IMG/VR virus record: IMGVR_UViG_3300014808_000002
Length of the DNA stretch: 36,052 nt
Source: a virus
Strand: one strand, 5' to 3'
A model generated the notes under the pieces. That model did no database searches. It saw nothing but the letters and a program-made list of their open reading frames with translations, and was not told where the DNA came from. The position numbers were made by a program, and so were the translations under genes. This document shows, one piece after another, positions 2,927-14,941 of this stretch; the stretch's first letter is position 1; each line of letters starts with the position of its first letter.

Positions 2927-2929
2927 TGC

Positions 2930-3064: not shown

Positions 3065-3076
3065 AAGAGTTTAGTA

Positions 3077-3442: not shown

Positions 3443-4334
3443 TTTTATATTCAGTTTCGTCTATTAGATATAATTTTATATTTGGATAGCGTTCTTTAAA
3501 CATAGATAACCTCTTCATACCTACTTCTGATTTCCATCCTTTTACTTCAATATAAAACACGCAATTAGGTGTTGTAACTTTGAAATCCGGGCAATAACTC
3601 CTAATTCCTTTCTTTATATCATTGAAAATAAATCTATCAGATTCATATTCCCACGATATAATATCCCCATTTGCTTTCAATTTTTGAAGTCTAATAGCAA
3701 CTTCATATTCCCAACTTGACTTAAAAACATATTTAGTCCCATCAATAACCGTAGAAACCTCTTTGCGATTAGACTTGCTCTTAATCACTCCATTTGTTCT
3801 ATACTTAAACATCCTGTCAGAAACATTTTGTCTGAATGATTCAGAATTAAACTTGCTATTAGGGTCGAGCCATGTTCTTTTAGATGATTCTGATATTTTA
3901 TTTCTTGCATTCTTGTCGTGTTTATGACCCAAATAACCTCTCGGATGTTCATGTGATAAATAATAAGTTTTGCGTATTTCAGATATTCTTGCCCTTTCTT
4001 CTTCACTCAACTTCGGAATATTTGCTCTGTCTGTTAAACCCAGATATTTTGCTTGCCTACAAATAAACTGTTTTGTTCTACCCATAATTGAGGCTAATTT
4101 ATCAAGTTTTCTTTCTTGACGATATTTCGGGTATAATTCACAAAGAATTTGTTTATCATTGTCAGTAAAATAGTTCATTTTATGTACTACTCCCAACTTC
4201 GTTAAGAGTTTATGAACATATTGTCCTTTAATGCCAAGCTCATCTCCAACTTTCCAAACATTTGATAGTCGTTTATAAGATTCGACTATTTTCATCTGTA
4301 GTTCAGAACTTATTTCTTGTTTATCGTATATCAT
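3384..4334 (-). CDS. HTH/NUMOD-like DNA-binding protein fused to a PD-(D/E)XK nuclease domain
   Basis: GHKHDKNARNKISES is a NUMOD3-like motif. The C-terminal SYCPDF...FYIEVKG is a restriction-endonuclease-like D...ExK core of DUF1064/TnsA-N type. It overlaps rusA by 59 nt. Confidence 0.6.
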   Translation of the reverse strand: MIYDKQEISSELQMKIVESYKRLSNVWKVGDELGIKGQYVHKLLTKLGVVHKMNYFTDNDKQILCELYPKYRQERKLDKLASIMGRTKQFICRQAKYLGLTDRANIPKLSEEERARISEIRKTYYLSHEHPRGYLGHKHDKNARNKISESSKRTWLDPNSKFNSESFRQNVSDRMFKYRTNGVIKSKSNRKEVSTVIDGTKYVFKSSWEYEVAIRLQKLKANGDIISWEYESDRFIFNDIKKGIRSYCPDFKVTTPNCVFYIEVKGWKSEVGMKRLSMFKERYPNIKLYLIDETEYKNVISKTDYLRIYTEQIKLI

Positions 4335-4630
4335 AATCCAAAATATCTATTTGCCGCCAGATCATCGTGTTGACGGATTGTTTCTACTATTTCCTTTTGC
4401 TGTTTACGGAAATTACGGTCATTGTCATACCTGCTATGGCATTCAGGGCAGCCAATTCGCAAGTTCCATTCTTCCGTAATGTATTCAGGATAAAGTGATC
4501 TAGGTAACAGGTGCATCAACTGTGGTGTGGATGTATATTTGTGGCAGATACAGCAATACTGCGGTAGATCCCTTTTTATCCTTGCAAGTTCACGGTTTAT
4601 TGTACTTTGTTTTTTGCTTATTTGTTTCAT
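4331..4630 (-). CDS. HNH endonuclease-like zinc protein
   Basis: CCICHK...LMHLLPRS...WNL...CPECH follows the CxxC / HH / N / CxxCH layout of HNH nucleases. The start is set at MKQISKK (4630) because 4638..4665 is a terminator hairpin. Confidence 0.55.
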   Translation of the reverse strand: MKQISKKQSTINRELARIKRDLPQYCCICHKYTSTPQLMHLLPRSLYPEYITEEWNLRIGCPECHSRYDNDRNFRKQQKEIVETIRQHDDLAANRYFGL

Positions 4631-4637
4631 TCCAATT

Positions 4638-4665
4638 AAAAGCCCCGAAGCGCATTCTCCGGGGC
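4638..4665 (-). terminator. Intrinsic terminator-like hairpin 8 nt upstream of the HNH gene start
   Basis: Minus strand reads GCCCCGGAGAAUGCGCUUCGGGGC followed by UUUUAAUUGGA and then AUG. Confidence 0.6.
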
Positions 4666-4937
4666 ACAACCATTATTTATTAACCCATGCCATTGATGTG
4701 TGGCTCACATTTATGTGTCAGCAGCAGGACTTGCACCTGCATGATAGGAGTTTTTCTTGGACTTTCACCAAGTAGTTTTGCTTTTTCACGTTGCGGTGAC
4801 ATTCAGCATTATCTGTTATTAGCTCAGTGGTTTGAATTTCTTTTTACAGCTAACCGTAACATATTGACTTGCCAACCTATCTATAAGAGCTTCACTTTAG
4901 TGTATCTCATTGTTCCACCATACTGACTGACCATTAC

Positions 4938-5036
4938 TTAATCAAAATTAAAATTATCCTCACCGTTAGGTTCTTCGTCCGGAAGGTCATTACCGAAATC
5001 CATCGGAATGAACCAGTCTGAAATATAGTCTTCCAT
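4938..5036 (-). CDS. Small acidic peptide (32 aa), tentative
   Basis: Hand translation gives MEDYISDWFIPMDFGNDLPDEEPNGEDNFNFD. The ATG lies 12 nt after the stop of 5049..5525. Confidence 0.3.
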   Translation of the reverse strand: MEDYISDWFIPMDFGNDLPDEEPNGEDNFNFD

Positions 5037-5048
5037 ATCAGTCAATTT

Positions 5049-5525
5049 TTAAGCATTAGGAAATTCTGGTTTAACATCTGAATTTGCTTCATAAGGATAA
5101 ACATCCATAATAGCAGTTTCCGCTACCGAAGCAATCACGTAGTCTGCCATTGTGCCTTTCATTCCTTCATCCAGTTTATTGACTGCATCTCTCAAGTCGG
5201 ATGCTTGAACAAGAATGTTTGTGGATGTTTTCTTTTCCGCACCAGTCTTTTCATCCAATGTGATAAAGTATAACTTGCATTTAAAATACCTGTCAGCAGA
5301 TTCTTCATCTGAGAAAAATATCTCAGAATAGTTGGCACGTTTTATGTCAGAAACAGTAAATTCACCGCTGATAAACGGTGTCATTTCCTCAATACATCTT
5401 CCTTCGCTTTCTGTAAAAGATAAAGAATCAAATAAATAAGATTCTGTGACTTTTTTATTCATCCCGTTTTCCATTACTTTCTCATAACGAATTTTACACT
5501 CAAACCATGTGTGCATCATAATCAT
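5049..5525 (-). CDS. DUF4494-like protein
   Basis: WFECKIRYEKVMENGMNKKVTESYLFDSLSFTESE resembles the Bacteroidota DUF4494 N-terminus (from memory). It shares an ATGA overlap with the upstream gene. Confidence 0.55.
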   Translation of the reverse strand: MIMMHTWFECKIRYEKVMENGMNKKVTESYLFDSLSFTESEGRCIEEMTPFISGEFTVSDIKRANYSEIFFSDEESADRYFKCKLYFITLDEKTGAEKKTSTNILVQASDLRDAVNKLDEGMKGTMADYVIASVAETAIMDVYPYEANSDVKPEFPNA

Positions 5526-5743
5526 TCCTCCTTTGTCTTGTTACGTTCCTTAATCATTGCATCAGCTATCTGATAAGCTGATTTAGCCTGTCCTTCATAG
5601 TAGTAGTTTGTAACACTAGCTTCTTTGGACGGAAAAAACAATGTTACAACTCTATTCCATAAAGTTCTTCTGCGTTTTGCTGTCATCATTATGCACTTCA
5701 TCGCTTCAAGCGCAATATGATCTCGTGATATGTTGCTTTCCAT
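5522..5743 (-). CDS. Hypothetical protein
   Basis: 73-aa track ORF, tightly tiled on the same strand. Confidence 0.55.
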   Translation of the reverse strand: MESNISRDHIALEAMKCIMMTAKRRRTLWNRVVTLFFPSKEASVTNYYYEGQAKSAYQIADAMIKERNKTKEE

Positions 5744-5747
5744 AATT

Positions 5748-5909
5748 TTATTGCTTTAATTGATTAATAACTTGTCTTTTGATTTTCTTGTACAGCTTCC
5801 CGACAAAACGTCCATGCTTCTCTGTTACGTCATCGGGCAAGTCGTTTTTATAAATATGAAGAAGTAACTGAATGAGAAGCACTTCTTGTTTTGTCAAAGT
5901 AAGTTTCAT
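5748..5909 (-). CDS. Small hypothetical protein (53 aa)
   Basis: Hand translation gives MKLTLTKQEVLLIQLLLHIYKNDLPDDVTEKHGRFVGKLYKKIKRQVINQLKQ. The ATG directly abuts the stop at 5910. Confidence 0.4.
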   Translation of the reverse strand: MKLTLTKQEVLLIQLLLHIYKNDLPDDVTEKHGRFVGKLYKKIKRQVINQLKQ

Positions 5910-6347
5910 TTAAATATGAAATTTATTTTGTTCAACCTCTATCTCCATCAACTGAATCAAACGTTCTTCGTCTGGAGATGGGATATATATACCACATTGG
6001 GCACTCGAAAAATTCCGAAACCGTTCAATAGTTAGGCTAAACTCTGTACTATCAAGGTCAGACGAACTTCTTAAGTATTTTATTCTCCCAAGAAACTTGT
6101 CTTCTCTCTCACGAACGAAAGTGTCTTTGTTGCACAGAATCTTGTAGTAGTTCCGCTTTACATATTCCATAGTTTCACCGATTTGGCAACCGAAATAAGC
6201 AAGGCAGACATGAAGGTATTTGTTGGCTTGAATACCCCTTTGGGGTTTCTTCTCAGTCAGTTCAAATACCTTCTGTTCCTTTATCAACTTCTCCAGCTTC
6301 GCTCTTGCCTGCTGGACGTGGAGAGGATTGGAACCATCGTATTTCAT
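5910..6347 (-). CDS. Hypothetical recombination-module protein
   Basis: 145-aa ORF sitting between the SSB-like gene and the small ORFs. It shows only weak resemblance to NinB-type proteins (QANKYLHVCLAYFG), which is not enough to name it. Confidence 0.6.
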   Translation of the reverse strand: MKYDGSNPLHVQQARAKLEKLIKEQKVFELTEKKPQRGIQANKYLHVCLAYFGCQIGETMEYVKRNYYKILCNKDTFVREREDKFLGRIKYLRSSSDLDSTEFSLTIERFRNFSSAQCGIYIPSPDEERLIQLMEIEVEQNKFHI

Positions 6348-6350
6348 AGG

Positions 6351-6650
6351 CTAAAATGGCAGATCATCATCCGACACGCTTGGCGCATTATTTATATCCT
6401 CTGGGCTAGGTGATGTATTCTGAGGTACAAACTCTTTGAGGTCCCCAAAAATATATCGTGTACCTTCTACCCGTTCTTCCTTTTTAGGAGAACAAGTGAT
6501 GAAATGCGTATGCCCGAACTGGGATTTCTCTTTGCGCTCGATAACAGCCACATTCACATAGATTCTTTCAACTCCGTCTTTACACTTAATTTTCTTCATC
6601 TGCTCACGAGGTATATCAGAGAGACAGATAGAACCACTTAAAATTGCCAT
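6351..6650 (-). CDS. Short SSB-like protein with a canonical acidic C-terminal tip
   Basis: It ends in SVSDDDLPF, matching the SSB interaction tip D-D-D-I/L-P-F. It lies directly downstream of the ERF and exonuclease genes. Confidence 0.55.
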   Translation of the reverse strand: MAILSGSICLSDIPREQMKKIKCKDGVERIYVNVAVIERKEKSQFGHTHFITCSPKKEERVEGTRYIFGDLKEFVPQNTSPSPEDINNAPSVSDDDLPF

Positions 6651-6652
6651 AA

Positions 6653-7549
6653 TTATATTGTTTTTAATGTTACACTTCCAACTACTGGAATCTCTTTTAA
6701 ATATTTCTTATACAAATCAGGATAATCTTTCTCAAACGCCTTTTTGTCGAAATCCTTTCTGATAGTGTCCTTTTTGCGAGTAAATGATATGATATCACCT
6801 TTCCAACTATATTCACCGGCTTCTACCATAGCCATCATAACGCCATCAGTTATTTCTTTCTTTTTATCAGACCAATATTTTGCCTGTGACACAATTTCCT
6901 GTATTGTCCTCTCCATCTTTCGGTACTCGTCAGGAAGAGTAACAGGGGATATGGAATAGGGATTCACAAACTGTCTGCCTTCCGAATCACATTTCAACAG
7001 ATTCATTACAACTTCTGATGGTATTCTCTCGACTTCTACTATCTCATGGTTTTTGCCTCTCAACCATATACCTATAAGCCTTACCGCATTGCATCCCGGA
7101 TTCTGCAACTCAAAAAGGTATGCATATATACTCAACTGCCATCTTACAGATTCCTTGTCAAGTACGTAGGTGGTCTTTATATCTCCCAAAGTAAAATCAG
7201 TTTCATTTTCGCGATAAACCTTGTCGATACAGCTTGCATAGTGCTCATTGTCAGATACAAGATATTCGGAACATTCGTACCTCAATCCCCAATCGTCTTT
7301 CAGTTCCTTGTATCCTTGTGCTTCATCGCTGTCATGAGTTATCCCCATATCATCGACAAGTTCGCAGATACTATGGATCATAGTACCTCTTTCAGCCGCT
7401 TTCCTTAACACGTCTTCGGGAACATCACGGTATTTATCGGGGAAAAGCTGTCTGCCTATCACGGAAGTAATACCACTTAGTTCCTTATCCCCTAGCATAT
7501 AAGTATGTTCATCGGGATTGAAAACGACTTGTGATTTGATTAGTTTCAT
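6653..7549 (-). CDS. PD-(D/E)XK (Cas4/RecB-like) exonuclease
   Basis: HTY...GITSV...GTMIH...D...LGDIKTT matches the phage PDDEXK exonuclease layout. It overlaps the ERF gene by 4 nt. Confidence 0.65.
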   Translation of the reverse strand: MKLIKSQVVFNPDEHTYMLGDKELSGITSVIGRQLFPDKYRDVPEDVLRKAAERGTMIHSICELVDDMGITHDSDEAQGYKELKDDWGLRYECSEYLVSDNEHYASCIDKVYRENETDFTLGDIKTTYVLDKESVRWQLSIYAYLFELQNPGCNAVRLIGIWLRGKNHEIVEVERIPSEVVMNLLKCDSEGRQFVNPYSISPVTLPDEYRKMERTIQEIVSQAKYWSDKKKEITDGVMMAMVEAGEYSWKGDIISFTRKKDTIRKDFDKKAFEKDYPDLYKKYLKEIPVVGSVTLKTI

Positions 7550-8118
7550 TTTAGTTCTCCTTTCCTTCTTGTCACCGCTTCAACAAAACGTTTGTCACTC
7601 TGTAATTCCTTATAATTTCCCCATACTACCTGTAATGTTTCGATTGACAGGCTTGACCTTACTTCCTGCAATGCCATCGCAAGGAAATCTGTTTCCTCTG
7701 GTGTCGTGCTGTCAGGGTCCTTTTGCTCTTCTGTAGGAATCAGGAACAATTGAAGCAAAGAATATTTCAACGCTATGCTCATTGCTTTATTCATTCCTTT
7801 GTCACCTGCGTCCATCGCTTCACCTACATTTACAGTCTCCACAAAGCTGCCATCAGTGGTCATATACCTAAACTTTATCGTAGCCCTTGTGAATGTGTTC
7901 GTACCGCCGGATTTCGTTATCCTATTCTCCGTTGTGAAGTTCTGCACTTCCTGTAGTATGAACACCTCATTTTTTGAGAATAATTCATGAAGTTCGTTCA
8001 TAACGTTGTCAATCCCACGGAATTTGAATCCCTGTTGCTGGTTCTTCTCCGATTTGGTGATAGCCTTTGTCTCTTTAAGGATATTGGCTATCTTACTGTA
8101 TATTAACTGTTCACTCAT
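7546..8118 (-). CDS. erf: ERF-family single-strand annealing protein
   Basis: NQQQGFKFRGIDNVMNEL...GDKGMNKAMSIALKYSLLQLF matches the ERF family core. Confidence 0.7.
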   Translation of the reverse strand: MSEQLIYSKIANILKETKAITKSEKNQQQGFKFRGIDNVMNELHELFSKNEVFILQEVQNFTTENRITKSGGTNTFTRATIKFRYMTTDGSFVETVNVGEAMDAGDKGMNKAMSIALKYSLLQLFLIPTEEQKDPDSTTPEETDFLAMALQEVRSSLSIETLQVVWGNYKELQSDKRFVEAVTRRKGELK

Positions 8119-8133
8119 TATAAAGCTATTATT

Positions 8134-8376
8134 TTACCAACACAAAAAAGGCAGGTCCGCAGTCCTTACAAAGTTCCGCTTCCTGCCATGATATCTTTCC
8201 GATTCTTCAAGCTCGTTTTCAAGAGAATCGATTTCTTCATTAAGCAAGGATATATATTTACCTTTACAGTCAGCGTTGAAGGTGAGCCTTACCGATTCCT
8301 CACTCATTGACTGGACTATATCAAGCTCTGAATATAGTTTATCCAGTTCATCGCTTATCTGTCTTACAGTTCTCAT
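8134..8376 (-). CDS. Hypothetical protein
   Basis: 80-aa track ORF with a coiled, acidic composition. Confidence 0.55.
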   Translation of the reverse strand: MRTVRQISDELDKLYSELDIVQSMSEESVRLTFNADCKGKYISLLNEEIDSLENELEESERYHGRKRNFVRTADLPFLCW

Positions 8377-8522
8377 ACCTTTTCAAGAAATTGGACCGGC
8401 AACGAGCATACACCCTTCATATTAGGATATTTGACATCAGCATACCCGTTAGCGATATAAACGATTGTACCTGTCAGCGTATCACCTATCTCACGTACTT
8501 TATCACCTTTCTTCATAACCAT
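8373..8522 (-). CDS. Small hypothetical protein (49 aa)
   Basis: Hand translation gives MVMKKGDKVREIGDTLTGTIVYIANGYADVKYPNMKGVCSLPVQFLEKV. It shares an ATGA overlap with 8376 and starts 2 nt after the stop at 8524. Confidence 0.4.
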   Translation of the reverse strand: MVMKKGDKVREIGDTLTGTIVYIANGYADVKYPNMKGVCSLPVQFLEKV

Positions 8523-8523
8523 T

Positions 8524-8985
8524 TTACTTTAAGTTATTGAACATCTGCTCCATAATACCTACTTTGGCACGTAAATCATCGTCTTTAGCTTTTTGTTCTG
8601 TAGGAACATCCCTCACATTGTACATTATCATTTTTGTACCTTTGATGCTGCTGTCAACATCCCTTATAAGCATTTTATATGCCATGCTTGCTTGATCTTT
8701 TGGGTTCACTATTGTATAACCCTCGCCACGTGAATTTTTCATGTACATTTTATATTCATTCAACATAGTGGTACGTAATGTTTCAACCATTCCCATATAC
8801 ATGAATTGCAGCCTGTCCCTCTCTCTGTCATATTCCTCCGTGGTTTCAAAATTGGAAATGTCTGTTTCTTCAATTCCAAATTTTTCTCTCAACCATGAAT
8901 GGCTAATAAGCTGACCGCTTGAAAAGTTTTCAGCAACTTCCTCACAAAGAGATTCCCACATTTCATTATTTATTCTCATATCCAT
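8524..8985 (-). CDS. Hypothetical protein
   Basis: 153-aa track ORF. Confidence 0.65.
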   Translation of the reverse strand: MDMRINNEMWESLCEEVAENFSSGQLISHSWLREKFGIEETDISNFETTEEYDRERDRLQFMYMGMVETLRTTMLNEYKMYMKNSRGEGYTIVNPKDQASMAYKMLIRDVDSSIKGTKMIMYNVRDVPTEQKAKDDDLRAKVGIMEQMFNNLK

Positions 8986-9000
8986 TTTTGTTTAAAATTA

Positions 9001-9045
9001 GGTGTCACGCAAGGAATCGAACCTTGCTAAAAACCATTGTGACAC
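9001..9045 (-). ncRNA. tRNA-like acceptor/T-arm minihelix A (no D or anticodon arm)
   Basis: Minus strand reads GUGUCAC-AAUGGUUUUUA-GCAAGG-UUCGAUU-CCUUGC-GUGACAC-C. It has a 7-bp acceptor-like stem and a 6-bp stem carrying the consensus T-loop (GGTTCGATTCC). Confidence 0.5.
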
Positions 9046-9050
9046 TGGAA

Positions 9051-9115
9051 ACTACACTAAACTTTACTATACTTTACCAGACTTCACCACACTTTATCAC
9101 ACTGGACTGGACTTT
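9051..9115. repeat. 13 phased pentamers ACTNN (plus) = NNAGT (minus)
   Basis: ACT (or ACC/ATC) occurs at 9051, 9056, 9061 ... 9111 without any phase slip. Confidence 0.85.
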
Positions 9116-9120
9116 ATTAA

Positions 9121-9164
9121 GCACCTCACGGGAGAATCGAACTCCCGAAAATCCAAATGAGGTG
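9121..9164 (-). ncRNA. tRNA-like acceptor/T-arm minihelix B
   Basis: Minus strand reads CACCUCA-UUUGGAUUUU-CGGGAG-UUCGAUU-CUCCCG-UGAGGUG-C. The architecture matches A, but the stem sequences differ. Confidence 0.5.
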
Positions 9165-9179
9165 TCGGATTACTTGATG

Positions 9180-9234
9180 ACTATACTATACTTCACTGAA
9201 CTTGACTCCACTGAACTAGACTCTACTCCACTAT
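9180..9234. repeat. 11 phased pentamers ACTNN (plus) = NNAGT (minus)
   Basis: ACT occurs at 9180, 9185 ... 9230. All 11 triplets are perfect, and the tract abuts the stop codon of 9231..9800. Confidence 0.9.
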
Positions 9235-9800
9235 TTAATTTCTTCCACTTTAAAATGCCCATACATCCTTCGATAAGTGCCCACACCGTAACGCAAACCT
9301 GCAATATCGAATATTTCAATAACTTCTGTCTCGTCAAGTTGTGTTTCATCATAATAACAATCTATCATAGAACCCCACTCACTAATGATAGCACGGGTAG
9401 TGGTAATCTTCACATTTTTGATTCCTACTGCACGGATATCAACATACTTGCCGATTTCATACAGTTGTTCGGGGCTTTTATTCTTGTCTTTAAAATCAAG
9501 AGGACAGTCGTTGAATATGTGGAAACTGCGCTCAAACTTCTTTCCTAATTTCCTTTCTTTTGCAGCATTAATAACCGAATTTTCAAAATGGCAGGATGGA
9601 ATCACATACGCCCCATTGTTCACATAAAGACATGATAGGAATTTAATACGTGATATTTCCATCAAATCTTCTTCTGTTTTTGTCCTTTTGGATGTGAGAG
9701 GTTTCAACAACTTGGAATACTCGTTGAACGGATTTACTGTTTGAGGATTGTTTAACATCAACGGAGTAGTTCCTGTAATTTTTAATTTTAATTGTTTCAT
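9231..9800 (-). CDS. Hypothetical phage protein
   Basis: 189-aa track ORF (KLKITGTTPLMLNNPQ...). I cannot assign a family with confidence. Confidence 0.7.
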   Translation of the reverse strand: MKQLKLKITGTTPLMLNNPQTVNPFNEYSKLLKPLTSKRTKTEEDLMEISRIKFLSCLYVNNGAYVIPSCHFENSVINAAKERKLGKKFERSFHIFNDCPLDFKDKNKSPEQLYEIGKYVDIRAVGIKNVKITTTRAIISEWGSMIDCYYDETQLDETEVIEIFDIAGLRYGVGTYRRMYGHFKVEEIK

Positions 9801-9810
9801 AATTATCTAA

Positions 9811-10116
9811 TTATTGTGGCAATGGTTTCCAAAAATCAATGTCCCATGCCCGGTTAGTATTTCCACATATCCAAATGTTCTTCTTATGCTCACTATCGAA
9901 TACCAACATCCCGGTATTCACAAATTTCCCGGAACTCTTCACAAGCACTCTTGTGTCTAATGGTGGAGGATCTTTTTCTGCATTCCTCCATTTTATGGAT
10001 TCCAAAACAAATCGAGCACCTTTCTCAAAATCCACCGATGCTGTTCTTTTGTGCGTAATCCCATGTATACCATTTGCATACTCTCTGGCTTTCTCCTTTA
10101 TTATATTTATATCCAT
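9811..10116 (-). CDS. DUF551-like protein
   Basis: WRNAEKDPPPLDTRVLV...FWKPLP resembles the DUF551 W..PP..VLV pattern. Compare 34612..34983. Confidence 0.6.
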   Translation of the reverse strand: MDINIIKEKAREYANGIHGITHKRTASVDFEKGARFVLESIKWRNAEKDPPPLDTRVLVKSSGKFVNTGMLVFDSEHKKNIWICGNTNRAWDIDFWKPLPQ

Positions 10117-10136
10117 AATTTAACTTGTTTCCAATT

Positions 10137-10171
10137 AAAAAGCTCCTGTTATCTTCACAGACTACAGGAGC
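10137..10171 (-). terminator. Intrinsic terminator
   Basis: Minus strand reads GCUCCUGU-(14 nt)-ACAGGAGC followed by UUUUUAAUUGGAA. It lies 25 nt upstream of the start at 10116. Confidence 0.65.
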
Positions 10172-10395
10172 AAAACCTAAACGACTTTATTATGACAACC
10201 TACAGCCACCGTCAGCGGAATCGGACCGCCATACTATCCGTTAAATAAAAGTAGAGATTAGAACAGATAATTATTTATGCTTATTTCCTTAGACAGTACC
10301 AGCCATGGACGGTGAAATTCCGTACCTATATTCACACACCGGCACGGACAAATTATGCAATTAACATTATAAACACAAAAAACTAGATGAAAAAA

Positions 10396-10578
10396 TCATT
10401 CATATTCCTTTAACTCCTTATATGTCATTGTCACCAATCTCACACACAATAATGAGATAATAGAAAATATAATCACCGATACGGATTTAATAGGACTTTC
10501 CGTAACTATCGCACCATAAATCATTCCTAAGGAACATAGGGTGGCAAATATAGACAGGATAAAATTAGCTGTTTTCAT
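10396..10578 (-). CDS. Small membrane protein (2 predicted TM segments)
   Basis: 60-aa ORF with two hydrophobic stretches. Confidence 0.5.
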   Translation of the reverse strand: MKTANFILSIFATLCSLGMIYGAIVTESPIKSVSVIIFSIISLLCVRLVTMTYKELKEYE

Positions 10579-10663
10579 AATACAAATTTTTATATTGTTC
10601 CCCTCAACGGCTTAAACCGGTTGTTACCACGAATCTTACGGGAGGGAAGAAATAGTAATCAGA

Positions 10664-10888: not shown

Positions 10889-10922
10889 TAATAAATTTAG
10901 GCAATTATATACTATTTTACAC
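10889..10922. repeat. Left inverted repeat
   Basis: taataaatttaggcaattatatactattttacac is the reverse complement of 14113..14146, with 23 perfect positions followed by 9 of 11. Confidence 0.85.
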
Positions 10923-10980
10923 AAAAAAATAATATACAAGTTATTAATATATAATATAACCCGAAGTTTTTAGGTAAAAT

Positions 10981-11007
10981 AAAAAAGGCACTGAAATTTC
11001 AGTGCCT
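10981..11007 (-). terminator. Intrinsic terminator
   Basis: Minus strand reads AGGCACUGAAAUUUCAGUGCCU followed by UUUUU, after the stop at 11020. Confidence 0.6.
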
Positions 11008-11019
11008 ATATCGTTCTTT

Positions 11020-11472
11020 TTATTTCCACTGGCTTAAGCAATCTGGATGATCGCTTTTCACATTAGATTGAGTAGGGTGTGTCTTTTCATTGTTTATTTT
11101 GGGTGTAAGGGAAATGTTGTTCTTTTTAATATTGATGGATATTTCCTTAATAACGATAAAAAACGAGTGAAATAAAAATGCAGACAATAACACTGCGATA
11201 GATAAAGATATATAAATCCATCCATATCCGTTAGACCTATATGAGCTTGATTCTACAATTCCCATAATAAGGAGTATTATAGACCCTAAAACATTAATGA
11301 ATAATACAACCCCAGATATTATTGATAATCTGTTTTCGTGTTTAAACTGTCCATCTTCTGATGGGATGTTGTTAGGTGATACGTTGTTTTCCATACTTAC
11401 ATGTTTTTTTCTAGTGTTAACTGCTATTACAAATGCAGTTACAAAAATTATTAATATTATAATTAATTCCAT
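11020..11472 (-). CDS. Membrane protein (multi-TM)
   Basis: 150-aa ORF with an N-terminal TM segment and two further long hydrophobic segments. Confidence 0.6.
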   Translation of the reverse strand: MELIIILIIFVTAFVIAVNTRKKHVSMENNVSPNNIPSEDGQFKHENRLSIISGVVLFINVLGSIILLIMGIVESSSYRSNGYGWIYISLSIAVLLSAFLFHSFFIVIKEISINIKKNNISLTPKINNEKTHPTQSNVKSDHPDCLSQWK

Positions 11473-11490
11473 TGTTTAGTTATTTATTTT

Positions 11491-11910
11491 CTATTCCTGT
11501 TCAATTTTTCTTCCAAACAGTTCTACTTGAAATATGAATATCATGCTCCAATTTCCAATGAAACTACTATCCTTTTTAGCCGCATTAAATACTTTGGTAG
11601 CACCATCTACAATTTGAGTCACTTTTTGTGCTTTATCTAACAAAAAATATCTTTCTTGTCCACTTCTTACATATATATATCCAAATTCACCAGAACTATA
11701 CATACCCATATTATTTTTCCCTTCTATTGTAAATGAAGTTAAATAAATAGAATCATCAGAACGTATAACTTCGTAATCACTAAACTTAATAGAACTTGGG
11801 TCAATTGCCGTATCTTCAATTATTTTATCCAAATATTGCTCCGCTTCTTTTTCAAATGATTTACCACATGATAACAAAAATAGAATGGAAATCCACAATA
11901 ACCACTTCAT
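11491..11910 (-). CDS. Lipoprotein
   Basis: The signal peptide MKWLLWISILFLLSCGKS carries a lipobox Cys. Confidence 0.65.
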   Translation of the reverse strand: MKWLLWISILFLLSCGKSFEKEAEQYLDKIIEDTAIDPSSIKFSDYEVIRSDDSIYLTSFTIEGKNNMGMYSSGEFGYIYVRSGQERYFLLDKAQKVTQIVDGATKVFNAAKKDSSFIGNWSMIFIFQVELFGRKIEQE

Positions 11911-11936
11911 AATCTAATAGATTTATAATTTTGCAA

Positions 11937-11944
11937 CAAAAGTA
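11937..11944 (-). promoter_or_regulatory. Bacteroidota-type -7 box (TACTTTTG)
   Basis: It matches TAnnTTTG and lies 27 nt upstream of the ATG at 11910. No clear -33 TTTG is present. Confidence 0.35.
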
Positions 11945-12188
11945 TAAATAATAAGCTCCAAGCATACTCAATCTAAGTTATATTTATGTAATATTAACTA
12001 CTAATCATTGATATGTAAATTTGTATTTTTATATTTGCGGAAACAAAATGGATAAACAATGTTAATGAATTTAATAATTGTCGAGGGAGGAGGTATTTTT
12101 CAGTAATAAGAAAAAAAAGTAGGGGATACAAAAATATCCATTGATGATAAAACTTTAATAGGGTCAAATGAACCCTAATTATAAGAAA

Positions 12189-12210
12189 GACCGGAGTTGT
12201 TACTCCGGTC
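12189..12210 (-). terminator. Intrinsic terminator
   Basis: Minus strand reads GACCGGAGU-AACA-ACUCCGGUC followed by UUUCUUAU, 8 nt after the stop of the KilA-N gene. Confidence 0.65.
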
Positions 12211-12217
12211 ATATATT

Positions 12218-13084
12218 TCAATTTTCTTCAAATCCTATAATCTTGTCTATGCCTTTGTCAAAATCATCATTTGATCTTATTTCTTTTATTTCACATTTCT
12301 GAGCTTTTGGTAATTGAAGTACCATTTTTTGGAGATATGGTATTGCTTTTATATCTTTTTTTAAAAAATATTGTTCAGCTTTTTGCAATAACCATTCATT
12401 GTTAAAATGTTCTCTAAAATCTGGCAATAACTCATTAGGATATAATCTTACGTTAGGAATCTTTCTTCCATCTCCATACTCATGTATATATGTTGGAAAT
12501 GTTGATGGGTCTATATTTTTCTCCTTTCTAAGCCAGTTGCAAAAAACTTTTCCTTCTGATATGTCTGGAACAAGTTTATCAGGCAGTGTATATCCCATTT
12601 CTTCTAAAGGAGCTATTAAGCTATATACAATTTCATTAAATACAGAGAAATACCCAACAGGTATTCTTCCTCTGTTTAGTAAATATCGCTGTAGATGATA
12701 AGGTATATTTTTCTTACTGAAAGAACCTTGCATCCATTCAAATACCCATTTTGTAACAAGAACAGCAAATTTAGGAGATACCCATTGAGCTAAATGAATA
12801 GCTATTTGAGGGTGTACCCAAGTTCCTTGAAACTGAGGAATACCGCCACTAACTATCTGAATTAGAGCCGATATGGGAATTCTCACCTCGGAGGATAACT
12901 CAGCATTAAACTCCGATGTAGTCTTTAATCTTTTATAATCAGCAAAATTTTTACCACATGCTTTACATAAAGATGTAGCATTTATATATCCATCTATCAG
13001 TCTTTGATTGATGTGAAAGTTGTCAACTTCTCTATCTATTACTGCAAGTTGCATTTGGAAGTTAGGTTCTTTTTTTTTATCCAT
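12218..13084 (-). CDS. KilA-N domain protein
   Basis: GYINATSLCKACGKNFADYKRLKTTSEF...GTWVHPQIAIHLAQWVSPKFAVLVTKWV is a classical KilA-N signature. It overlaps the transposase stop by 8 nt. Confidence 0.8.
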   Translation of the reverse strand: MDKKKEPNFQMQLAVIDREVDNFHINQRLIDGYINATSLCKACGKNFADYKRLKTTSEFNAELSSEVRIPISALIQIVSGGIPQFQGTWVHPQIAIHLAQWVSPKFAVLVTKWVFEWMQGSFSKKNIPYHLQRYLLNRGRIPVGYFSVFNEIVYSLIAPLEEMGYTLPDKLVPDISEGKVFCNWLRKEKNIDPSTFPTYIHEYGDGRKIPNVRLYPNELLPDFREHFNNEWLLQKAEQYFLKKDIKAIPYLQKMVLQLPKAQKCEIKEIRSNDDFDKGIDKIIGFEEN

Positions 13085-14030
13085 ATATCAATTCTTTATA
13101 AGTTAATCTACATTCAATATTCTGCAAGAATAAATCAAACCTTTCTTTGTCTGATAATAAGCGAGTGTTAAAACGATACACACACTCGTCAATATAACGT
13201 TGCATGTGTTGTTTAGACCAATGGTAGTATATACCCATAATACTTCTTTTCACTAAAGCCCAAAATCCTTCGATGTGATTTGTCGTCAGATCACCACTAC
13301 CATAAAATCCTGCTCCATGATTTACATTTCTATGGTTGTAGTAAATATTAGCCCTATCACTATAATTCCATTCGTCTGTATAAAGATTACTACCTTCTTT
13401 CACGTAATTATGAATAACAGAGAAAAGGGTATTTGATTTTGTGTCAGAAACAACTTTAGCAATAATCCTACCATTACGTTGAATCATTCCGAATACAGGT
13501 ATTTTATCTTTGAAACTTCTACCTTGACAAGCCTTTACTTTCTTGTCTGCATGACGATTTTTATTCTTCCCACCAATAAAAGTTTCATCTACCTCAATAG
13601 TACCACTCAATTTACCACCATCACTGTCATTATTGTCATCTTCATTTGACTTATCGTTTTCTATACCTAAAGCCTTTCTGATCCTGTGAAGCATAAACCA
13701 TGCAGTTTTCTGAGTTACCCCAATATCTTTACTTAATTGTATTGAAGATATACCTTTTTTGTGGGATAATACAAGCCATATAGCCATAAACCAATAAATT
13801 AAAGGTAGGGAGGTTTTATGAAAAATAAGTTTAGTCTTAACATTAAAGTATTTTCCAGTGTTTTTACAACGATATTTATTATCTTTGCATTTGTAGACTT
13901 TGGAAGTAGGATCAAAAGGGGAAACGACCTTTACACCCCACCTTCTTTCTTCCAGATAATCTATACAGTGCTGTTCTGTTGGGAAAGCATCTTGTAAATC
14001 TTTTAATGATTTGAATCTACTATTAAACAT
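13077..14030 (-). CDS. IS1595-family transposase (Zn-ribbon plus DDE)
   Basis: The N-terminal CxxYLE..RW...C..C zinc ribbon, IEVDETFIGGKNKNRH and NHIEGFWALVKRSIMGIYYHWSKQHMQRYIDECVYRFN match ISXO2-like/IS1595 transposases. Confidence 0.85.
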   Translation of the reverse strand: MFNSRFKSLKDLQDAFPTEQHCIDYLEERRWGVKVVSPFDPTSKVYKCKDNKYRCKNTGKYFNVKTKLIFHKTSLPLIYWFMAIWLVLSHKKGISSIQLSKDIGVTQKTAWFMLHRIRKALGIENDKSNEDDNNDSDGGKLSGTIEVDETFIGGKNKNRHADKKVKACQGRSFKDKIPVFGMIQRNGRIIAKVVSDTKSNTLFSVIHNYVKEGSNLYTDEWNYSDRANIYYNHRNVNHGAGFYGSGDLTTNHIEGFWALVKRSIMGIYYHWSKQHMQRYIDECVYRFNTRLLSDKERFDLFLQNIECRLTYKELIYG

Positions 14031-14112
14031 AAGGCTTAGTTTTTAATTATGCCCCTAATATAGTAACTTTTTACACAAGATGCAAATATAATGCAGTATT
14101 TTTACATAATTG

Positions 14113-14146
14113 GTGTAAATTAATATATAATTGCCTAAATTTATTA
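14113..14146. repeat. Right inverted repeat
   Basis: gtgtaaattaatatataattgcctaaatttatta. It includes the stop codon (14144..14146) of the 68-aa ORF. Confidence 0.85.
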
Positions 14147-14350
14147 TCTGATTCTTGTTACAATGGTACCGTCAACACCACTTTTAGATATAAAATTATA
14201 ACCAATCTTATTCAGTCTTGACATAGTAGCACGTACAACATTTTCTTTTATAGCTTTACTTTTAATAAGCCTTGTTTCTCCGACTGCTATACTTTTTAAT
14301 GTTTCGGCAGGTGATATTTTTTTGATAACTATCGTATTAATATTTTCCAT
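14144..14350 (-). CDS. Hypothetical protein, first gene leftward of the switch region (Cro-position)
   Basis: 68-aa track ORF, divergent from the repressor gene. Confidence 0.5.
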   Translation of the reverse strand: MENINTIVIKKISPAETLKSIAVGETRLIKSKAIKENVVRATMSRLNKIGYNFISKSGVDGTIVTRIR

Positions 14351-14400
14351 TATATTTGTTTGTTATTTTATTTTTCTTTATGTTTGCGAACGCTGCCATT

Positions 14401-14473
14401 TAGCAACTTTGTTGATATCGTTGTTTATTAACAGCATTGCAAAGATAGATATTGTTGGTAATATAGCAACAAT
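14401..14473. promoter_or_regulatory. Candidate operator cluster in the divergent switch region
   Basis: Three CAAC/GTTG-based palindromes are present: CAACtttGTTG (14404..14414), TGTTtattAACA (about 14422..14433) and ATTGTTG-N9-CAACAAT (14451..14473). Confidence 0.4.
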
Positions 14474-14503
14474 ACAGTAGATATTTAACGTATAATTAAC
14501 ATT

Positions 14504-14941
14504 ATGGAAACAAGAGAACGTATTATTTCAGCTTACAACCATCTAAAAGATGTAGGTATTATATCATCTCAACAAAATGTTGCAGATAGAATGGGGATTA
14601 GAAAAGAAAGTGTATCTAAAGCGTTTAGTGGTAATAAAAGTTACCTAACCAATACTTTTATTCTTAAATTTAATAATGCTTTTGATAATATGTTTAATAA
14701 CGACTGGCTTATGGAAGGAAAAGGAGAAATGCTAAAAAACAATCAATCCATTGGAGATATCAAAAACTCAAGTGTACATGGGGTTAACGTAAACGGTAAG
14801 GATATATATTTAGAATGCCCATTCGACAAAAACGGTATGGAAATTATTGTGAATATGATTAATCAAAACCAAAAGAATATAGAAATGTTTCAAGAACAAA
14901 TAAACAGGTTGATTACATTATTGGAAAAGAAGTATAATTAA
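14504..14941 (+). CDS. CI-like phage repressor (HTH)
   Basis: SQQNVADRMGIRKESVSKAFSG forms the HTH, followed by the NDWLMEGKGEM motif typical of Bacteroidales phage repressors. It is the only plus-strand protein gene inside the minus arm apart from the small ORF at 31076..31210. Confidence 0.65.
   Translation: METRERIISAYNHLKDVGIISSQQNVADRMGIRKESVSKAFSGNKSYLTNTFILKFNNAFDNMFNNDWLMEGKGEMLKNNQSIGDIKNSSVHGVNVNGKDIYLECPFDKNGMEIIVNMINQNQKNIEMFQEQINRLITLLEKKYN

What the first reader, a model, noticed from the sequence alone, without database searches (positions are those of the whole stretch)
8986..9234. Two tandem modules of a phased (NNAGU)n tract followed by a tRNA-like acceptor/T-arm minihelix
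Seen directly, reading the minus strand through the 245-nt gap between two genes:
- The stop of 9231..9800 is followed by 11 pentamers NNAGT with no phase slip (plus-strand ACT at 9180, 9185 ... 9230).
- Minihelix B (9121..9164) follows: a 7-bp stem CACCUCA/UGAGGUG, linker UUUGGAUUUU, and a 6-bp stem with loop UUCGAUU that runs straight into the 3' acceptor strand.
- Then come 13 more pentamers (9051..9115; 10 AGT, 3 GAT/GGT).
- Minihelix A (9001..9045) has the same geometry but different stem sequences (GUGUCAC/GUGACAC, GCAAGG/CCUUGC, linker AAUGGUUUUUA).
- 15 nt later is the ATG at 8985.

The T-loop (GGTTCGATTCC) and a UGG in the linker are conserved while both stems differ yet still pair. 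That is what selection on an RNA fold looks like. Neither element has a D or anticodon arm, so neither is a decoding tRNA.

Established knowledge: acceptor/T-arm minihelices are recognised by RNase P and the CCA-adding enzyme, and the 11-mer TRAP protein binds 11 (G/U)AG triplets spaced by 2-3 nt.

Inference: this could be a pair of processed sRNAs or mRNA punctuation sites. In that case the NAG-repeat tracts would be platforms or sponges for a ring-shaped RNA-binding protein. I know of no described element with this layout.

Alternatives at the DNA level are attP-like copies of host tRNA 3' ends, or iteron or centromere-like phased repeats for a plasmid-like replicon.
Basis: partly seen in the sequence, partly recalled or inferred. 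Interest (0 to 1): 0.85.

Follow-up and report, generated by a model that had tools for sequence, protein, structure and literature searches.

The report
Phage VIPR guide-RNA array with tRNA-like ends
The two repeat-plus-minihelix modules are most likely guide RNAs of a VIPR system, a phage RNA-guided DNA-silencing system first described in 2026. This version uses AGU instead of GGY as the fixed part of each repeat, ends each guide with a tRNA-like minihelix, and has one guide that matches sibling phages lacking the system.

Summary
The 245-nt gap lies between two genes. The upstream 189-aa protein is a homologue of the SUSP1 Vipr protein (PDB 36pp; profile E 2.6e-36; Cas7/Csm3-like fold). The downstream 153-aa protein is a homologue of SUSP1 vap1 (E 1.3e-30).

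The (NNAGU)11 and (NNAGU)13 tracts fit VIPR guide RNAs (vrRNAs). In VIPR, one Vipr protomer binds each pentamer, and the NN dinucleotides read double-stranded DNA with a 1-nt skip. Three results support this here:
- AGU is fixed while NN carries almost no information.
- Near-identical phages (flanking genes 99-100% identical) have entirely different NN in tract 1.
- Guide 2 matches 22-24 of 26 NN bases, at wobble phase, in 48 sibling phage contigs. In these contigs the 1239-nt vipr-array-vap1 cassette is replaced by a 61-aa ORF. The window itself is not matched.

The published text does not describe three features: the AGU motif (with an H17→N change at a G1-contacting residue), the strongly covarying tRNA-like minihelix at each guide's 3' end, and the array sitting between vipr and vap1. 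The same minihelix type also occurs alone upstream of genes in unrelated phage contigs, which suggests host tRNA-processing enzymes are used.

Verdict: a new variant of a known kind. No expression or processing data exist.

The parts
9231..9800 (-). vipr gene: 189-aa Vipr (ancestral RAMP / Cas7-like) protein
   Evidence: The profile of 47 homologues hits PDB 36pp_D 'SUSP1 Vipr protein' over its full length, E 2.6e-36. BLASTP to SUSP1 Vipr gives 30% identity, E 4e-29. The AF2 model has pLDDT 90.5; 49 of the 50 Foldseek PDB hits shown are Csm3/Cas7-type backbone subunits of type III, III-B and VII effector complexes, and one is a Cas6. The G-loop reads GVGTYR. R136 and R177 align with the SUSP1 contact residues R138 and R179.
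9180..9233 (-). vrRNA1 guide tract: 11 AGU in 5-nt phase. The 10 bracketed NN are GG AG CU UC GG CA UC GA AU AU. The first AGU overlaps the vipr stop codon.
   Evidence: The NN are completely different in phages with 99.3-100% identical flanking genes (L240, L254), and two NN differ in L001, whose vipr is 100% identical.
9165..9179 (-). Junction CAUCAAGUAAUCCGA, containing one out-of-phase AGU unit, then a spacer to the minihelix
   Evidence: The AGUAAUCCGA part is kept in L240 and L254.
9121..9164 (-). tRNA-like minihelix B: 7-bp acceptor-like stem, 10-nt linker with UGG, 6-bp T-like stem, UUCGAUU loop, then an unpaired C at 9121
9051..9115 (-). vrRNA2 guide tract: 13 pentamers (10 AGU, 1 GAU, 2 GGU). 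NN = CC CC GU AA GU GA CU AA AU AA UU GU (UU).
   Evidence: Under the 1-nt-skip rule it matches sibling phages at 22-24 of 26 NN bases.
9001..9045 (-). tRNA-like minihelix A: same geometry as B with different stem sequences, an 11-nt linker and an unpaired C at 9001. It ends 15 nt upstream of the vap1 ATG.
8524..8985 (-). vap1-like accessory gene (153 aa)
   Evidence: An HMM of its family (alignment A2) hits SUSP1 vap1 (L268 3091-3531) at E 1.3e-30; BLASTP gives 26% identity, E 1.8e-10. The AF2 model has pLDDT 95.5. Foldseek gives only weak winged-helix DNA-binder hits, all E > 0.1.
8536..9774 (.). The VIPR cassette as a presence/absence polymorphism. In 47 sibling contigs this 1239-nt segment is replaced by 303 or 342 nt.

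Best explanation
The locus is a VIPR (Viral Interference Programmable Repeat) system of the SUSP1-like vipr+vap1 kind, carried by a Bacteroidales temperate phage.

**Proposed mechanism**
- The operon vipr - array - vap1 is transcribed on the minus strand.
- Each module (phased tract plus minihelix) gives one guide RNA (vrRNA).
- Vipr protomers polymerise along the tract, one per pentamer. Each holds the constant AGU flipped out and presents the NN dinucleotides.
- The 10-13 NN together read double-stranded DNA as NNxNNx... (1-nt skip).
- The bound filament blocks transcription of a competing phage.
- Guide 2 is aimed at the allele carried by sibling phages that lack the cassette, so the carrier discriminates self from non-self by construction.

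**The minihelices**
They occupy the position of the structured 3' tail of SUSP1 vrRNAs but are tRNA mimics. My favoured reading is that they are boundary elements recognised by host tRNA-end enzymes. RNase Z would cut after the unpaired C, and RNase P might cut at the 5' side. These cuts would dice the co-transcript into vipr mRNA, vrRNA1, vrRNA2 and vap1 mRNA. The minihelix may stay attached as a 3' cap.

**Status of each step**
- Shown here: protein homologies, repeat statistics, NN hypervariability, fold covariation, and the target match.
- Taken from the SUSP1 papers: filament formation, the 1-nt-skip rule and silencing.
- Inferred and untested: expression, processing by RNase P/Z, and silencing in this host.
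For: 1. **Vipr homology.**: E 2.6e-36 to PDB 36pp; 30% identity, E 4e-29; 49 of the 50 Foldseek hits shown are Cas7/Csm3-type backbone subunits.
2. **vap1 homology.**: E 1.3e-30.
3. **Same pentamer logic as published vrRNAs** (9-16 repeats, conserved trinucleotide alternating with hypervariable NN). Here there are 11 and 13 units. Across 381 units from 42 distinct tracts, NN carries 0.08 and 0.06 bits.
4. **NN turnover.** The flanking genes are 99.3-100% identical while tract 1 keeps only the AGU (70-74% identity). There are 2 NN changes against a phage with 100% identical vipr.
5. **Contact residues.** R138, R179 and the aromatic residue at 178 are kept. The G1-contacting H17 is N in the AGU clade, but H in a relative whose repeats are GGU (L149). 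D177 is T/S throughout.
6. **Target of guide 2.** 48 of 65 seed hits are sibling phages. Of these, 47 are collinear with the window on both sides, at about 92-95% median identity. The site lies in the segment that replaces the cassette. The first 10 NN match perfectly in most of them (41 loci at 23/26 and 2 at 24/26; the other 5 at 22/26). The skip base falls at the codon wobble position. The window's own best match is 17/26 or lower.
7. **Synteny.** All 7 loci fetched through the protein alone show vipr - spacer - vap1. Six of them have at least one minihelix in the spacer.
8. **Minihelix fold.** 96.7% of cells are paired; 12 of 13 pairs change on both sides; covariation score 0.956 against 0.215 for shuffles (0 of 500 reach it); slid controls give at most 0.245. 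The set is not biased by selection: 39 of 42 T-loop motifs inside arrays fold this way, against 0 of 600 outside.
9. **Co-transcription.** No terminator was found in 8300-10500, so processing is needed.
10. **Host recognition.** The same minihelix type occurs without tracts or vipr in 58 distinct sequences from other viral contigs. In 28 of these it lies 5-60 nt upstream of an ORF on the same strand, against 1 in the opposite-strand control. This points to recognition by the host rather than by Vipr.
Against: - The constant trinucleotide is AGU, not GGY. In SUSP1, the GGY>AGY substitution is among those that abolished silencing. Function here therefore requires a re-tuned protein, which is only inferred.
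- The H17/N17 correlation rests on few lineages. L260 has H17 but a degenerate first position.
- No convincing target was found for guide 1. There were 0 perfect 10-NN hits. The best candidate family matches only the 8-NN seed (16/22 bases).
- The guide-2 target was found with a seed built on the 1-nt-skip rule, so the other-skip controls are biased.
- The minihelix position is not uniform. Some arrays start with a minihelix that has no tract (L102). Some end with a tract that has no minihelix (L264, L269). L273 has none.
- The stem stack is 13 bp (7+6) with a mostly Y1-R72 first pair, which is not an ideal tRNA-like substrate.
- There are no transcript, processing or binding data.
Confidence: 0.82

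Rival explanations
1. The minihelix is purely a Vipr-specific 3' handle, the functional analogue of the SUSP1 pseudoknot. It would cap or nucleate the filament, and host tRNA enzymes would play no part. The tRNA likeness would be structural convergence or simply a stable fold.
For: - It occupies the same position as the SUSP1 tail, 5-16 nt after the last repeat.
- In SUSP1 the pseudoknot caps the 3' end, and protomers are seen first near it.
- The 13-bp stack and the Y1-R72 first pair depart from tRNA.
Against: - The same minihelix type is common in viral contigs that have no vipr gene and no period-5 tract, usually just upstream of ORFs.
- Some arrays have a minihelix with no tract before it, and some have tracts with no minihelix after them.
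- Stem sequences differ freely between modules of one array, whereas the SUSP1 tail is described as invariable.
- A related clade (L072) uses a quite different hairpin tail with the same AGU code.
Confidence: 0.3
2. One reading: the NAG/AGU tracts are sponges or platforms for a ring-shaped, TRAP-like RNA-binding protein. They would be released as small RNAs by tRNA-type processing, with no guide function.
For: - Tract 1 has eleven NAG triplets spaced by 2 nt, which resembles the 11 (G/U)AG sites of TRAP (established knowledge of TRAP).
- The tracts cannot readily self-pair (sequence inspection).
Against: - The conserved triplet is AGU, not (G/U)AG. Only 7 of 11 NAG in tract 1 and 3 of 13 triplets in that register in tract 2 are G/U-AG.
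- Unit number ranges from 5 to 21, which does not fit a fixed ring.
- The adjacent gene encodes a filament-forming Vipr homologue.
- The spacer dinucleotides match a sibling phage in a gapped code. A sponge model does not predict this.
Confidence: 0.04
3. DNA-level repeats: iterons, a centromere or an origin for a plasmid-like replicon, or attP-like copies of host tRNA 3' ends.
For: - Phased short repeats lie in the early/replication region, next to Erf and an exonuclease.
- The T-loop 11-mer is identical to the tRNA consensus.
Against: - Both strands of the acceptor-like stem are present and covary with free sequence change. A 3'-half tRNA copy would not do this.
- The element is strand-specific and co-oriented with the operon in all loci.
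- A 5-bp period with only 3 fixed bases, together with rapid NN turnover, is not iteron-like.
- The whole segment is a mobile cassette absent from sibling phages that share the same flanking genes, so it is not an essential origin.
Confidence: 0.03
4. A decaying or inactive VIPR remnant: the homology is real, but the AGU repeats no longer support Vipr binding.
For: - GGY>AGY is among the substitutions that abolished silencing in SUSP1.
- Some relatives have degenerate tracts (L265, L271).
- In L254, minihelix A lacks its linker.
Against: - AGU is kept at 93-97% per position across 381 units in many lineages (with the caveat that chains were defined by AGT).
- vipr and vap1 are intact and conserved across more than 160 homologues.
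- NN keep changing while AGU and the phase are preserved.
- Guide 2 has a near-perfect match in a biologically sensible target.
Confidence: 0.06

Closest known systems
Type II VIPR system of Escherichia phage SUSP1 and the P. fulva prophage (bioRxiv 10.64898/2026.04.26.720920 and 10.64898/2026.04.26.720927)
   Same: - Homologous Vipr and vap1 proteins.
- Phage-borne.
- vrRNAs made of about 10-13 pentamers, with a fixed trinucleotide alternating with hypervariable NN, followed by a ~40-nt structured 3' element.
- A predicted target in a competing phage, read with a 1-nt skip, with skip bases at codon wobble positions.
   Different: - The fixed trinucleotide is AGU rather than GGY, with N instead of H at the G1-contacting position 17.
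- The 3' element is a tRNA-like acceptor/T-arm minihelix rather than a pseudoknot, and its stems differ between guides.
- The array sits between vipr and vap1 and starts at the vipr stop codon. In SUSP1 it lies upstream of vipr and downstream of vap1.
- The host is Bacteroidales.
- The target is the alternative allele of the VIPR locus itself in sibling phages.
Hammerhead-ribozyme-interspersed vrRNA arrays (VIPR types I and V, same preprint)
   Same: A structured RNA element between adjacent guide tracts that could define guide ends.
   Different: Those arrays cleave themselves. Here the interspersed element is a tRNA mimic, which would need host RNase P or RNase Z. This is inferred, not shown.
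Class 1 CRISPR backbone filaments (Cas7/Csm3/Cmr4 on crRNA)
   Same: RAMP fold with G-loop and thumb; one protomer per fixed-length RNA segment; periodic base flipping.
   Different: - The period is 5 nt rather than 6.
- Three bases per unit are flipped out and sequence-specific.
- Only 2 of 5 guide bases pair with the target.
- There is no CRISPR array, no Cas6 and no adaptation genes.
tRNA-type punctuation and tRNA-like processing signals (mitochondrial tRNA punctuation; MALAT1-mascRNA; tRNA-flanked small RNAs)
   Same: A tRNA-like fold embedded in a longer transcript at the boundary between functional RNAs. It includes the acceptor/T-arm stack that RNase P, RNase Z and the CCA-adding enzyme recognise (established knowledge). 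The weak mascRNA hit only reflects this shape.
   Different: - No D or anticodon arm at all.
- A 13-bp rather than 12-bp stack.
- Mostly a Y-R first pair.
- No Rfam family matches.
- Processing has not been demonstrated.
TRAP (trp RNA-binding attenuation protein) binding sites
   Same: About 11 triplets at a 5-nt period in single-stranded RNA.
   Different: The triplet identity differs, the unit number varies from 5 to 21, and the spacers carry the information. The partner protein is a helical RAMP filament, not a ring.

Membership tests
VIPR system | A Vipr protein: a minimal RAMP with an RRM core, G-loop and thumb | tested here: met
   The profile hits the SUSP1 Vipr protein (PDB 36pp) at E 2.6e-36 over its full length. 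BLASTP gives 30% identity, E 4e-29. The AF2 model matches Csm3/Cas7-type subunits. The G-loop GVGTYR and the thumb Arg are conserved.
VIPR system | An adjacent vipr-accessory (vap) gene | tested here: met
   The 153-aa downstream protein is homologous to SUSP1 vap1 (HMM E 1.3e-30). It is syntenic in all 7 protein-anchored loci.
VIPR system | A vrRNA with 9-16 tandem pentamers in which a conserved trinucleotide alternates with hypervariable NN | tested here: met
   There are 11 and 13 units. NN carries 0.08 and 0.06 bits of information. NN is fully replaced between phages with 99-100% identical flanking genes.
VIPR system | The conserved trinucleotide is GGY (canonical YNNGG repeat) | tested here: not met
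   The motif is AGU in 21 of 24 units in the window and about 93% A at position 1 across the family. The preprint allows 'a related consensus' (NNNGG, YNNNG, NNNNG). UNNAG fits YNNNG, but AGU is not named there.
VIPR system | A structured, conserved 3' tail after the repeat tract | tested here: met
   A covarying 43-44-nt minihelix lies 5-16 nt after the last unit. The fold differs from the SUSP1 pseudoknot.
VIPR system | NN dinucleotides match a target in a competing mobile element under the 1-nt-skip rule, with no self-target | tested here: met
   This holds for guide 2 only: 22-24 of 26 NN bases match in 48 sibling-phage contigs, at wobble phase, and the window's own best match is 17/26 or lower. 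Guide 1 is inconclusive.
VIPR system | vrRNAs are expressed, co-purify with Vipr and silence transcription | not testable with these tools
   This needs sRNA-seq, pull-down and reporter assays.
tRNA gene | A cloverleaf with D arm and anticodon arm, and a 12-bp acceptor/T stack | tested here: not met
   ARAGORN finds 0 genes. There is no Rfam tRNA hit at E<=10. A 9-13-nt linker replaces both arms, and the stack is 7+6 bp in 36 of 41 elements.
RNase P / RNase Z substrate (tRNA-like minihelix) | A coaxial acceptor/T stem with a T-loop, an unpaired base after the 3' strand, and cleavage at its ends | tested here: inconclusive
   The shape, the UUCGAUU loop, the GG in the linker and the unpaired C/A (40 of 41) are present. 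Cleavage is not testable here.
TRAP-binding RNA | 9-11 (G/U)AG triplets separated by 2-3 nt, and a TRAP (MtrB) protein in the organism | tested here: not met
   The triplet identity is only partly met (7/11 and 3/13). The conserved triplet is AGU. Unit number ranges from 5 to 21. The presence of an MtrB gene was not examined.
attP copy of a tRNA 3' end | Identity to the 3' part of a host tRNA only, next to an integrase | tested here: not met
   The 5' acceptor strand is present and covaries. The element is repeated up to 6 or more times per array. It is not adjacent to the recombinase genes of the window. Identity to a host tRNA could not be tested.

The most novel reading that the evidence does not exclude
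Phages of Bacteroidales and other bacteria use a minimal tRNA mimic as a general transcript-punctuation signal read by host RNase P, RNase Z or the CCA-adding enzyme. The mimic has a 7-bp acceptor stem, a ~10-nt linker containing GG, and a 6-bp T stem-loop. This VIPR clade has co-opted it to cut guide RNAs out of an mRNA. If so, biogenesis of an RNA-guided DNA-targeting system would depend on the host tRNA-maturation machinery. The AGU/NN code, with N17 in Vipr, would be a natural second dialect of the VIPR code, orthogonal to GGY.
Probability: 0.4. Interest if true: 0.75.

Novelty: new variant of a known kind. Interest (0 to 1): 0.62.

Why it matters
VIPR was described only in 2026, as an RNA-guided DNA-recognition system older than CRISPR. 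How its guides are made, and how far its code can vary, are open questions. This locus offers four things:
1. A natural AGU/NN version of the code, paired with a change at a residue that contacts G1. This suggests orthogonal, re-engineerable Vipr/guide pairs.
2. A guide array punctuated by tRNA mimics. This gives a testable route for guide biogenesis through host tRNA enzymes.
3. A clear natural target. The guide hits the allele that replaces the VIPR cassette in otherwise about 92-98% identical sibling phages. This is a direct example of sibling-phage exclusion with built-in self/non-self discrimination.
4. An extension of VIPR to abundant human-gut Bacteroidales phages.

Tried and rejected
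- **BLASTN against INPHARED phages** with 8400-9900: no match.
- **Rfam, gathering and E<=10:** only chance-level hits at the locus (Plastid-ycf2 on the wrong strand; mascRNA at E 8.4).
- **ARAGORN:** no tRNA.
- **Sigma-70 promoter scan:** at chance level, and not suited to Bacteroidales.
- **Literature searches** on tRNA-like minihelices in phages found nothing relevant.
- **First local target search** (2.4 Mb, skip 0-3): chance level.
- **Exact 10-NN scans.** Guide 1 gave 0 hits. Guide 2 (NN3-12) gave one hit, L267, in a 33%-GC contig. Its flanking NN do not match and its skip base falls at codon position 1, so I judged it chance.
- **L297** matches guide 1 at 19/22 but in the wrong codon phase, so I judged it chance.
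- **The L015 guide against window 15615** (14/16) has its skip base at codon position 2, so I judged it chance.
- **Foldseek of the vap1-like protein:** only non-significant winged-helix hits.
- **Are lone minihelices hidden VIPR arrays?** They are not: they have no vipr gene and no period-5 signal.
- **Are they mis-called tRNAs?** Only a few pattern hits lie inside real tRNA genes.
- **Which of the seven VIPR types this belongs to** could not be decided. The preprint's figures and data tables are not held.
Full report
**1. The observation**

- The UAG stop of ORF 9231-9800 lies at 9233-9231 and overlaps the first of eleven AGU triplets in strict 5-nt phase (to 9182-9180).
- After a 15-nt junction comes minihelix B (9164-9122, then C9121).
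- Next come thirteen pentamers (9115-9051: 10 AGU, 1 GAU, 2 GGU).
- Then come a 5-nt spacer, minihelix A (9045-9002, then C9001), 15 nt, and the ATG at 8985.

The phase signal is unique in the window. Ten-unit windows with at least 6 AGT occur only here, and the plus strand never exceeds 3. No period-5 GT chain of 6 or more units appeared in 200 shuffles. ARAGORN finds no tRNA. Rfam finds nothing meaningful at the locus. Both minihelices appear in the MFE fold of the 251-nt spacer (z = -3.7).

**2. Relatives**

The surrounding genes are phage early genes: Erf, a RecE-like exonuclease, KilA-N and others. Two pattern scans of viral contigs were informative.
- A scan for seven phased AGT recovered near-identical contigs. 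It also recovered divergent ones (L015/L075, L043/L048/L051/L102) with the same tract-plus-minihelix layout and different stem sequences.
- A combined tract-plus-T-loop pattern found 5 viral, 22 metagenomic (mostly human gut) and 2 genomic loci.

In these loci the number of modules runs from 1 (L241) to 6 (L237; five or more are visible in the short contig L243). The array always lies between homologues of the same two genes.

Seven loci fetched through the upstream protein alone all show the same gene - spacer - gene order. Six of them carry at least one minihelix in the spacer. One (L273) has a 17-unit NGU tract and no minihelix.

**3. The key to the identification is the upstream gene**

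- Its 189-aa product has more than 160 homologues in Bacteroidales and no Pfam domain.
- Its AlphaFold model (pLDDT 90.5) matches Csm3/Cmr4/Cas7-type backbone subunits of type III and type VII CRISPR effectors in 49 of the 50 Foldseek hits shown; one hit is a Cas6.
- A profile of the family hits one PDB sequence, '36pp, SUSP1 Vipr protein', over its full length at E 2.6e-36. Pairwise BLASTP gives 30% identity, E 4e-29.

Two bioRxiv preprints of April-June 2026 describe what this protein does.
- In VIPR (Viral Interference Programmable Repeat) systems, Vipr protomers polymerise along a vrRNA made of 9-16 YNNGG repeats.
- In those repeats a constant GGY alternates with hypervariable NN.
- A structured 3' tail caps the RNA.
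- The NN dinucleotides pair with double-stranded DNA under a '1-nt skip' rule (target NNxNNx...).
- The complex silences transcription of competing phages.
- Most loci contain only vipr and an accessory gene, vap.

I fetched the SUSP1 locus. The gene after SUSP1 vipr, vap1, is homologous to the window's downstream 153-aa protein (HMM E 1.3e-30). The window therefore carries a vipr+vap1 system, and the 'finding' is its guide array.

**4. Tests of the vrRNA reading on the sequence itself**

(a) Information content. Across 42 distinct tracts (381 units) from the family, the two N positions carry 0.08 and 0.06 bits. Unit numbers are 5-21, with a median of 10. The high AGU scores are partly built into how the chains were defined.

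(b) NN turnover. Three phages have vipr and vap1 99.1-100% identical to the window. In two of them (L240, L254) tract 1 has unrelated NN and a different unit count, with AGU and the phase intact. In the third (L001), whose vipr is 100% identical, there are two substitutions in the tract, both at N positions. This is the behaviour of a reprogrammable guide.

(c) Base-contact residues. In SUSP1, G1 is read by H17 and D177, G2 by R138 and W178, and Y3 by R179 among others.
- In the window's family R136, R177 and an aromatic residue at 176 are kept.
- H17 is a nearly invariant N and D177 is an invariant T.
- A close relative whose repeats are mostly GGU (L149) has H at position 17.
- L072 (AGU) has A. 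L260 has H with a degenerate first base.
- The change of G1 to A1 is thus mirrored at a G1 contact, but in few lineages.

**5. Natural target**

Exact scans with ten NN under the 1-nt-skip rule gave nothing convincing. Eight-NN seeds were more informative.

Guide 2. The seed found 65 viral loci.
- 48 of them match 22-24 of all 26 NN bases. The first ten NN are perfect in most: 41 loci score 23/26 and 2 score 24/26, while the other 5 score 22/26.
- These 48 are sibling phages. 47 are collinear with the window on both sides, with median identities of 95% to window 4936-8535 and 92% to 9775-10646.
- Between those flanks, the 1239-nt vipr-array-vap1 segment is replaced by 303 or 342 nt encoding a 61-aa ORF. 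No vipr or vap was found in the fetched loci.
- The target is the last 13 codons of that ORF, for example L326 7749-7786. The NN fall on codon positions 1-2 and the skip base on the wobble position. The preprint reports the same phase for natural targets.
- The window's own best match to the guide is 17/26 or lower.

A random seed hit landing in the window's own phage family, exactly at the allelic locus, and extending in the right codon phase is very unlikely. I take this as good evidence that the AGU-type guide uses the same gapped code and is aimed at cassette-free siblings.

Guide 1. The seed hits 50 loci, 43 of them from one unrelated gut-phage family. The site is inside a DNA helicase gene and in wobble phase, but there is no match beyond the seed (16/22). 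I call this only a weak candidate.

Caveat. The loci were fetched with skip-1 seeds, so the local control (0, 49 and 0 hits at skip 0, 1 and 2) is biased.

**6. The minihelices**

An alignment of 28 distinct VIPR-associated minihelices supports both stems.
- 96.7% of cells are paired.
- 12 of 13 pairs show changes on both sides.
- The covariation score is 0.956, against 0.215 for shuffles (0 of 500 reach it) and at most 0.245 for slid partners.
- This is not an artefact of how I collected them. Inside arrays, 39 of 42 T-loop motifs fold this way. Outside arrays in the same loci, 0 of 600 do.

Shared features across 41 distinct elements:
- a 7-bp acceptor-like stem, mostly with a Y-R first pair;
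- a 9-13-nt linker with GG at positions 4-5 (36/41). By analogy with tRNA G18-G19, these could dock on the T-loop; this is inference;
- a 6-bp T-like stem (36/41), giving a 13-bp stack;
- a UUCGAUU loop;
- an unpaired C (28) or A (12) and then an A/U-rich stretch, never CCA.

There is no terminator in 8300-10500. The array is therefore co-transcribed with vipr and vap1 and must be cut.

**7. The minihelix is not specific to VIPR**

- A scan for AUGGU-N9-GGUUCGAUUCC in viral contigs gave 121 matches, of which 78 fold in this geometry with unrelated stems.
- Apart from three VIPR loci, these contigs have no vipr gene and no period-5 signal upstream. Most have no tRNA genes.
- Of 58 distinct free-standing elements, 28 lie 5-60 nt upstream of an ATG-initiated ORF on the same strand, against 1 in the opposite-strand control.
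- Minihelix A in the window sits 15 nt before the vap1 ATG in the same way.

This argues that host factors recognise the element. I favour tRNA-end processing (RNase Z after the unpaired base, and possibly RNase P at +1), with the minihelix possibly kept as a 3' cap. In that role it would be analogous to the hammerhead-interspersed arrays described for other VIPR types.

The alternative is that it is purely a Vipr handle like the SUSP1 pseudoknot. That is not excluded (I give it about 0.3).

Placement is irregular across relatives, which fits a boundary element better than an obligatory tail:
- a minihelix without a tract in L102;
- terminal tracts without a minihelix in L264 and L269;
- a different hairpin tail with the same AGU code in L072.

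**8. Comparison with what is known, and novelty**

- Membership of VIPR is met for the protein, the accessory gene, the repeat architecture, NN hypervariability, a structured 3' element, phage carriage and one gapped target.
- The canonical GGY motif is not met. The preprint allows 'a related consensus' (NNNGG, YNNNG, NNNNG), and UNNAG fits YNNNG.
- Neither preprint nor the held supplement mentions tRNA, AGU or Bacteroidales in its text. Their figures and data tables are not available to me, so these features may be shown there without being named.
- I therefore rate the locus a new variant of a known kind: an AGU-code, tRNA-mimic-punctuated, vipr-array-vap1 version in gut Bacteroidales phages, with an allele-directed target.
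- Expression, processing, RNP formation and silencing are all untested here.

Noticed in passing
L120-L235 (viral contigs), e.g. L218 137 and 1089 (+), L225 4792 and 5150 (-), L201 6710 and 7172 (-): Free-standing tRNA-like minihelices with the same geometry but unrelated stems occur in many viral contigs. These contigs have no vipr gene and no pentamer tract. Of 58 distinct elements, 28 lie 5-60 nt upstream of an ORF start on the same strand, against 1 in the opposite-strand control. No Rfam family covers them.
   Followed up: partly
window 18444-18524 (-): There is an Rfam c4-2 RNA (RF02944, 45.7 bits) immediately upstream of a Bro-N/ANT antirepressor gene (17579-18451). A second Bro-N/ANT paralogue lies at 15724-16515. 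The arrangement resembles a P1-type c4/ant immunity module.
   Followed up: no
window 9-118 and 35907-36052: The same 24-nt tandem repeat is present at both ends of the window. Sibling contig L367 aligns across both ends. The window therefore looks like a circularly permuted or complete element cut inside a repeat-containing gene.
   Followed up: partly
window 10898-14137: This 3.2-kb segment is absent from sibling L367, which joins window 10897 to 14138. The segment holds a KilA-N/BstA-like gene (12218-13084) and an IS1595-family transposase (13077-14030). It is a second cassette polymorphism, next to the VIPR one.
   Followed up: partly
L072 (-) 2403-4170: A more distant VIPR locus ordered vipr - vap - array. 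It has six AGU/NN guides, each ending in a conserved non-tRNA hairpin tail. So the AGU code is not tied to the minihelix.
   Followed up: partly
L149 (-) 14174-14934; L260 (-) 3839-4900; L273 2073-2196: Three relatives use other constant triplets. L149 has mostly GGU repeats, a minihelix, and H at Vipr position 17. L260 (a Draconibacterium MAG) has NGU repeats with minihelices and a very divergent Vipr. L273 has a 17-unit NGU tract and no minihelix.
   Followed up: partly
L264 4570-5395 (Muribaculaceae MAG): An 822-nt array with at least five tracts and four minihelices. It contains a ~280-nt internal duplication, a first element with an atypical loop, and a last tract that runs straight into the vap1 leader without a minihelix.
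   Followed up: no
L254 791-836: In this near-identical phage, minihelix A has lost its 11-nt linker, so GUGUCAC is joined directly to GCAAGG. What remains is a plain 13-bp hairpin with the T-loop.
   Followed up: no
L021 2590-2633, L031, L110 613-651, L112 89-122, L115 99-132, L108, L019/L109/L029: Degenerate (NNAGT)n tracts occur in other viral contigs with no T-loop and no vipr detectable with my HMM. Some follow a conserved leader and one is followed by a terminator-like hairpin. They may be guides of other VIPR types.
   Followed up: no
L276-L325, e.g. L276 10496-10518: One abundant gut-phage family (43 contigs) carries a perfect match to the eight tail-proximal NN of guide 1. The site is inside a DNA helicase gene (phrog_16) and in wobble phase, but nothing matches beyond the seed.
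   Followed up: partly
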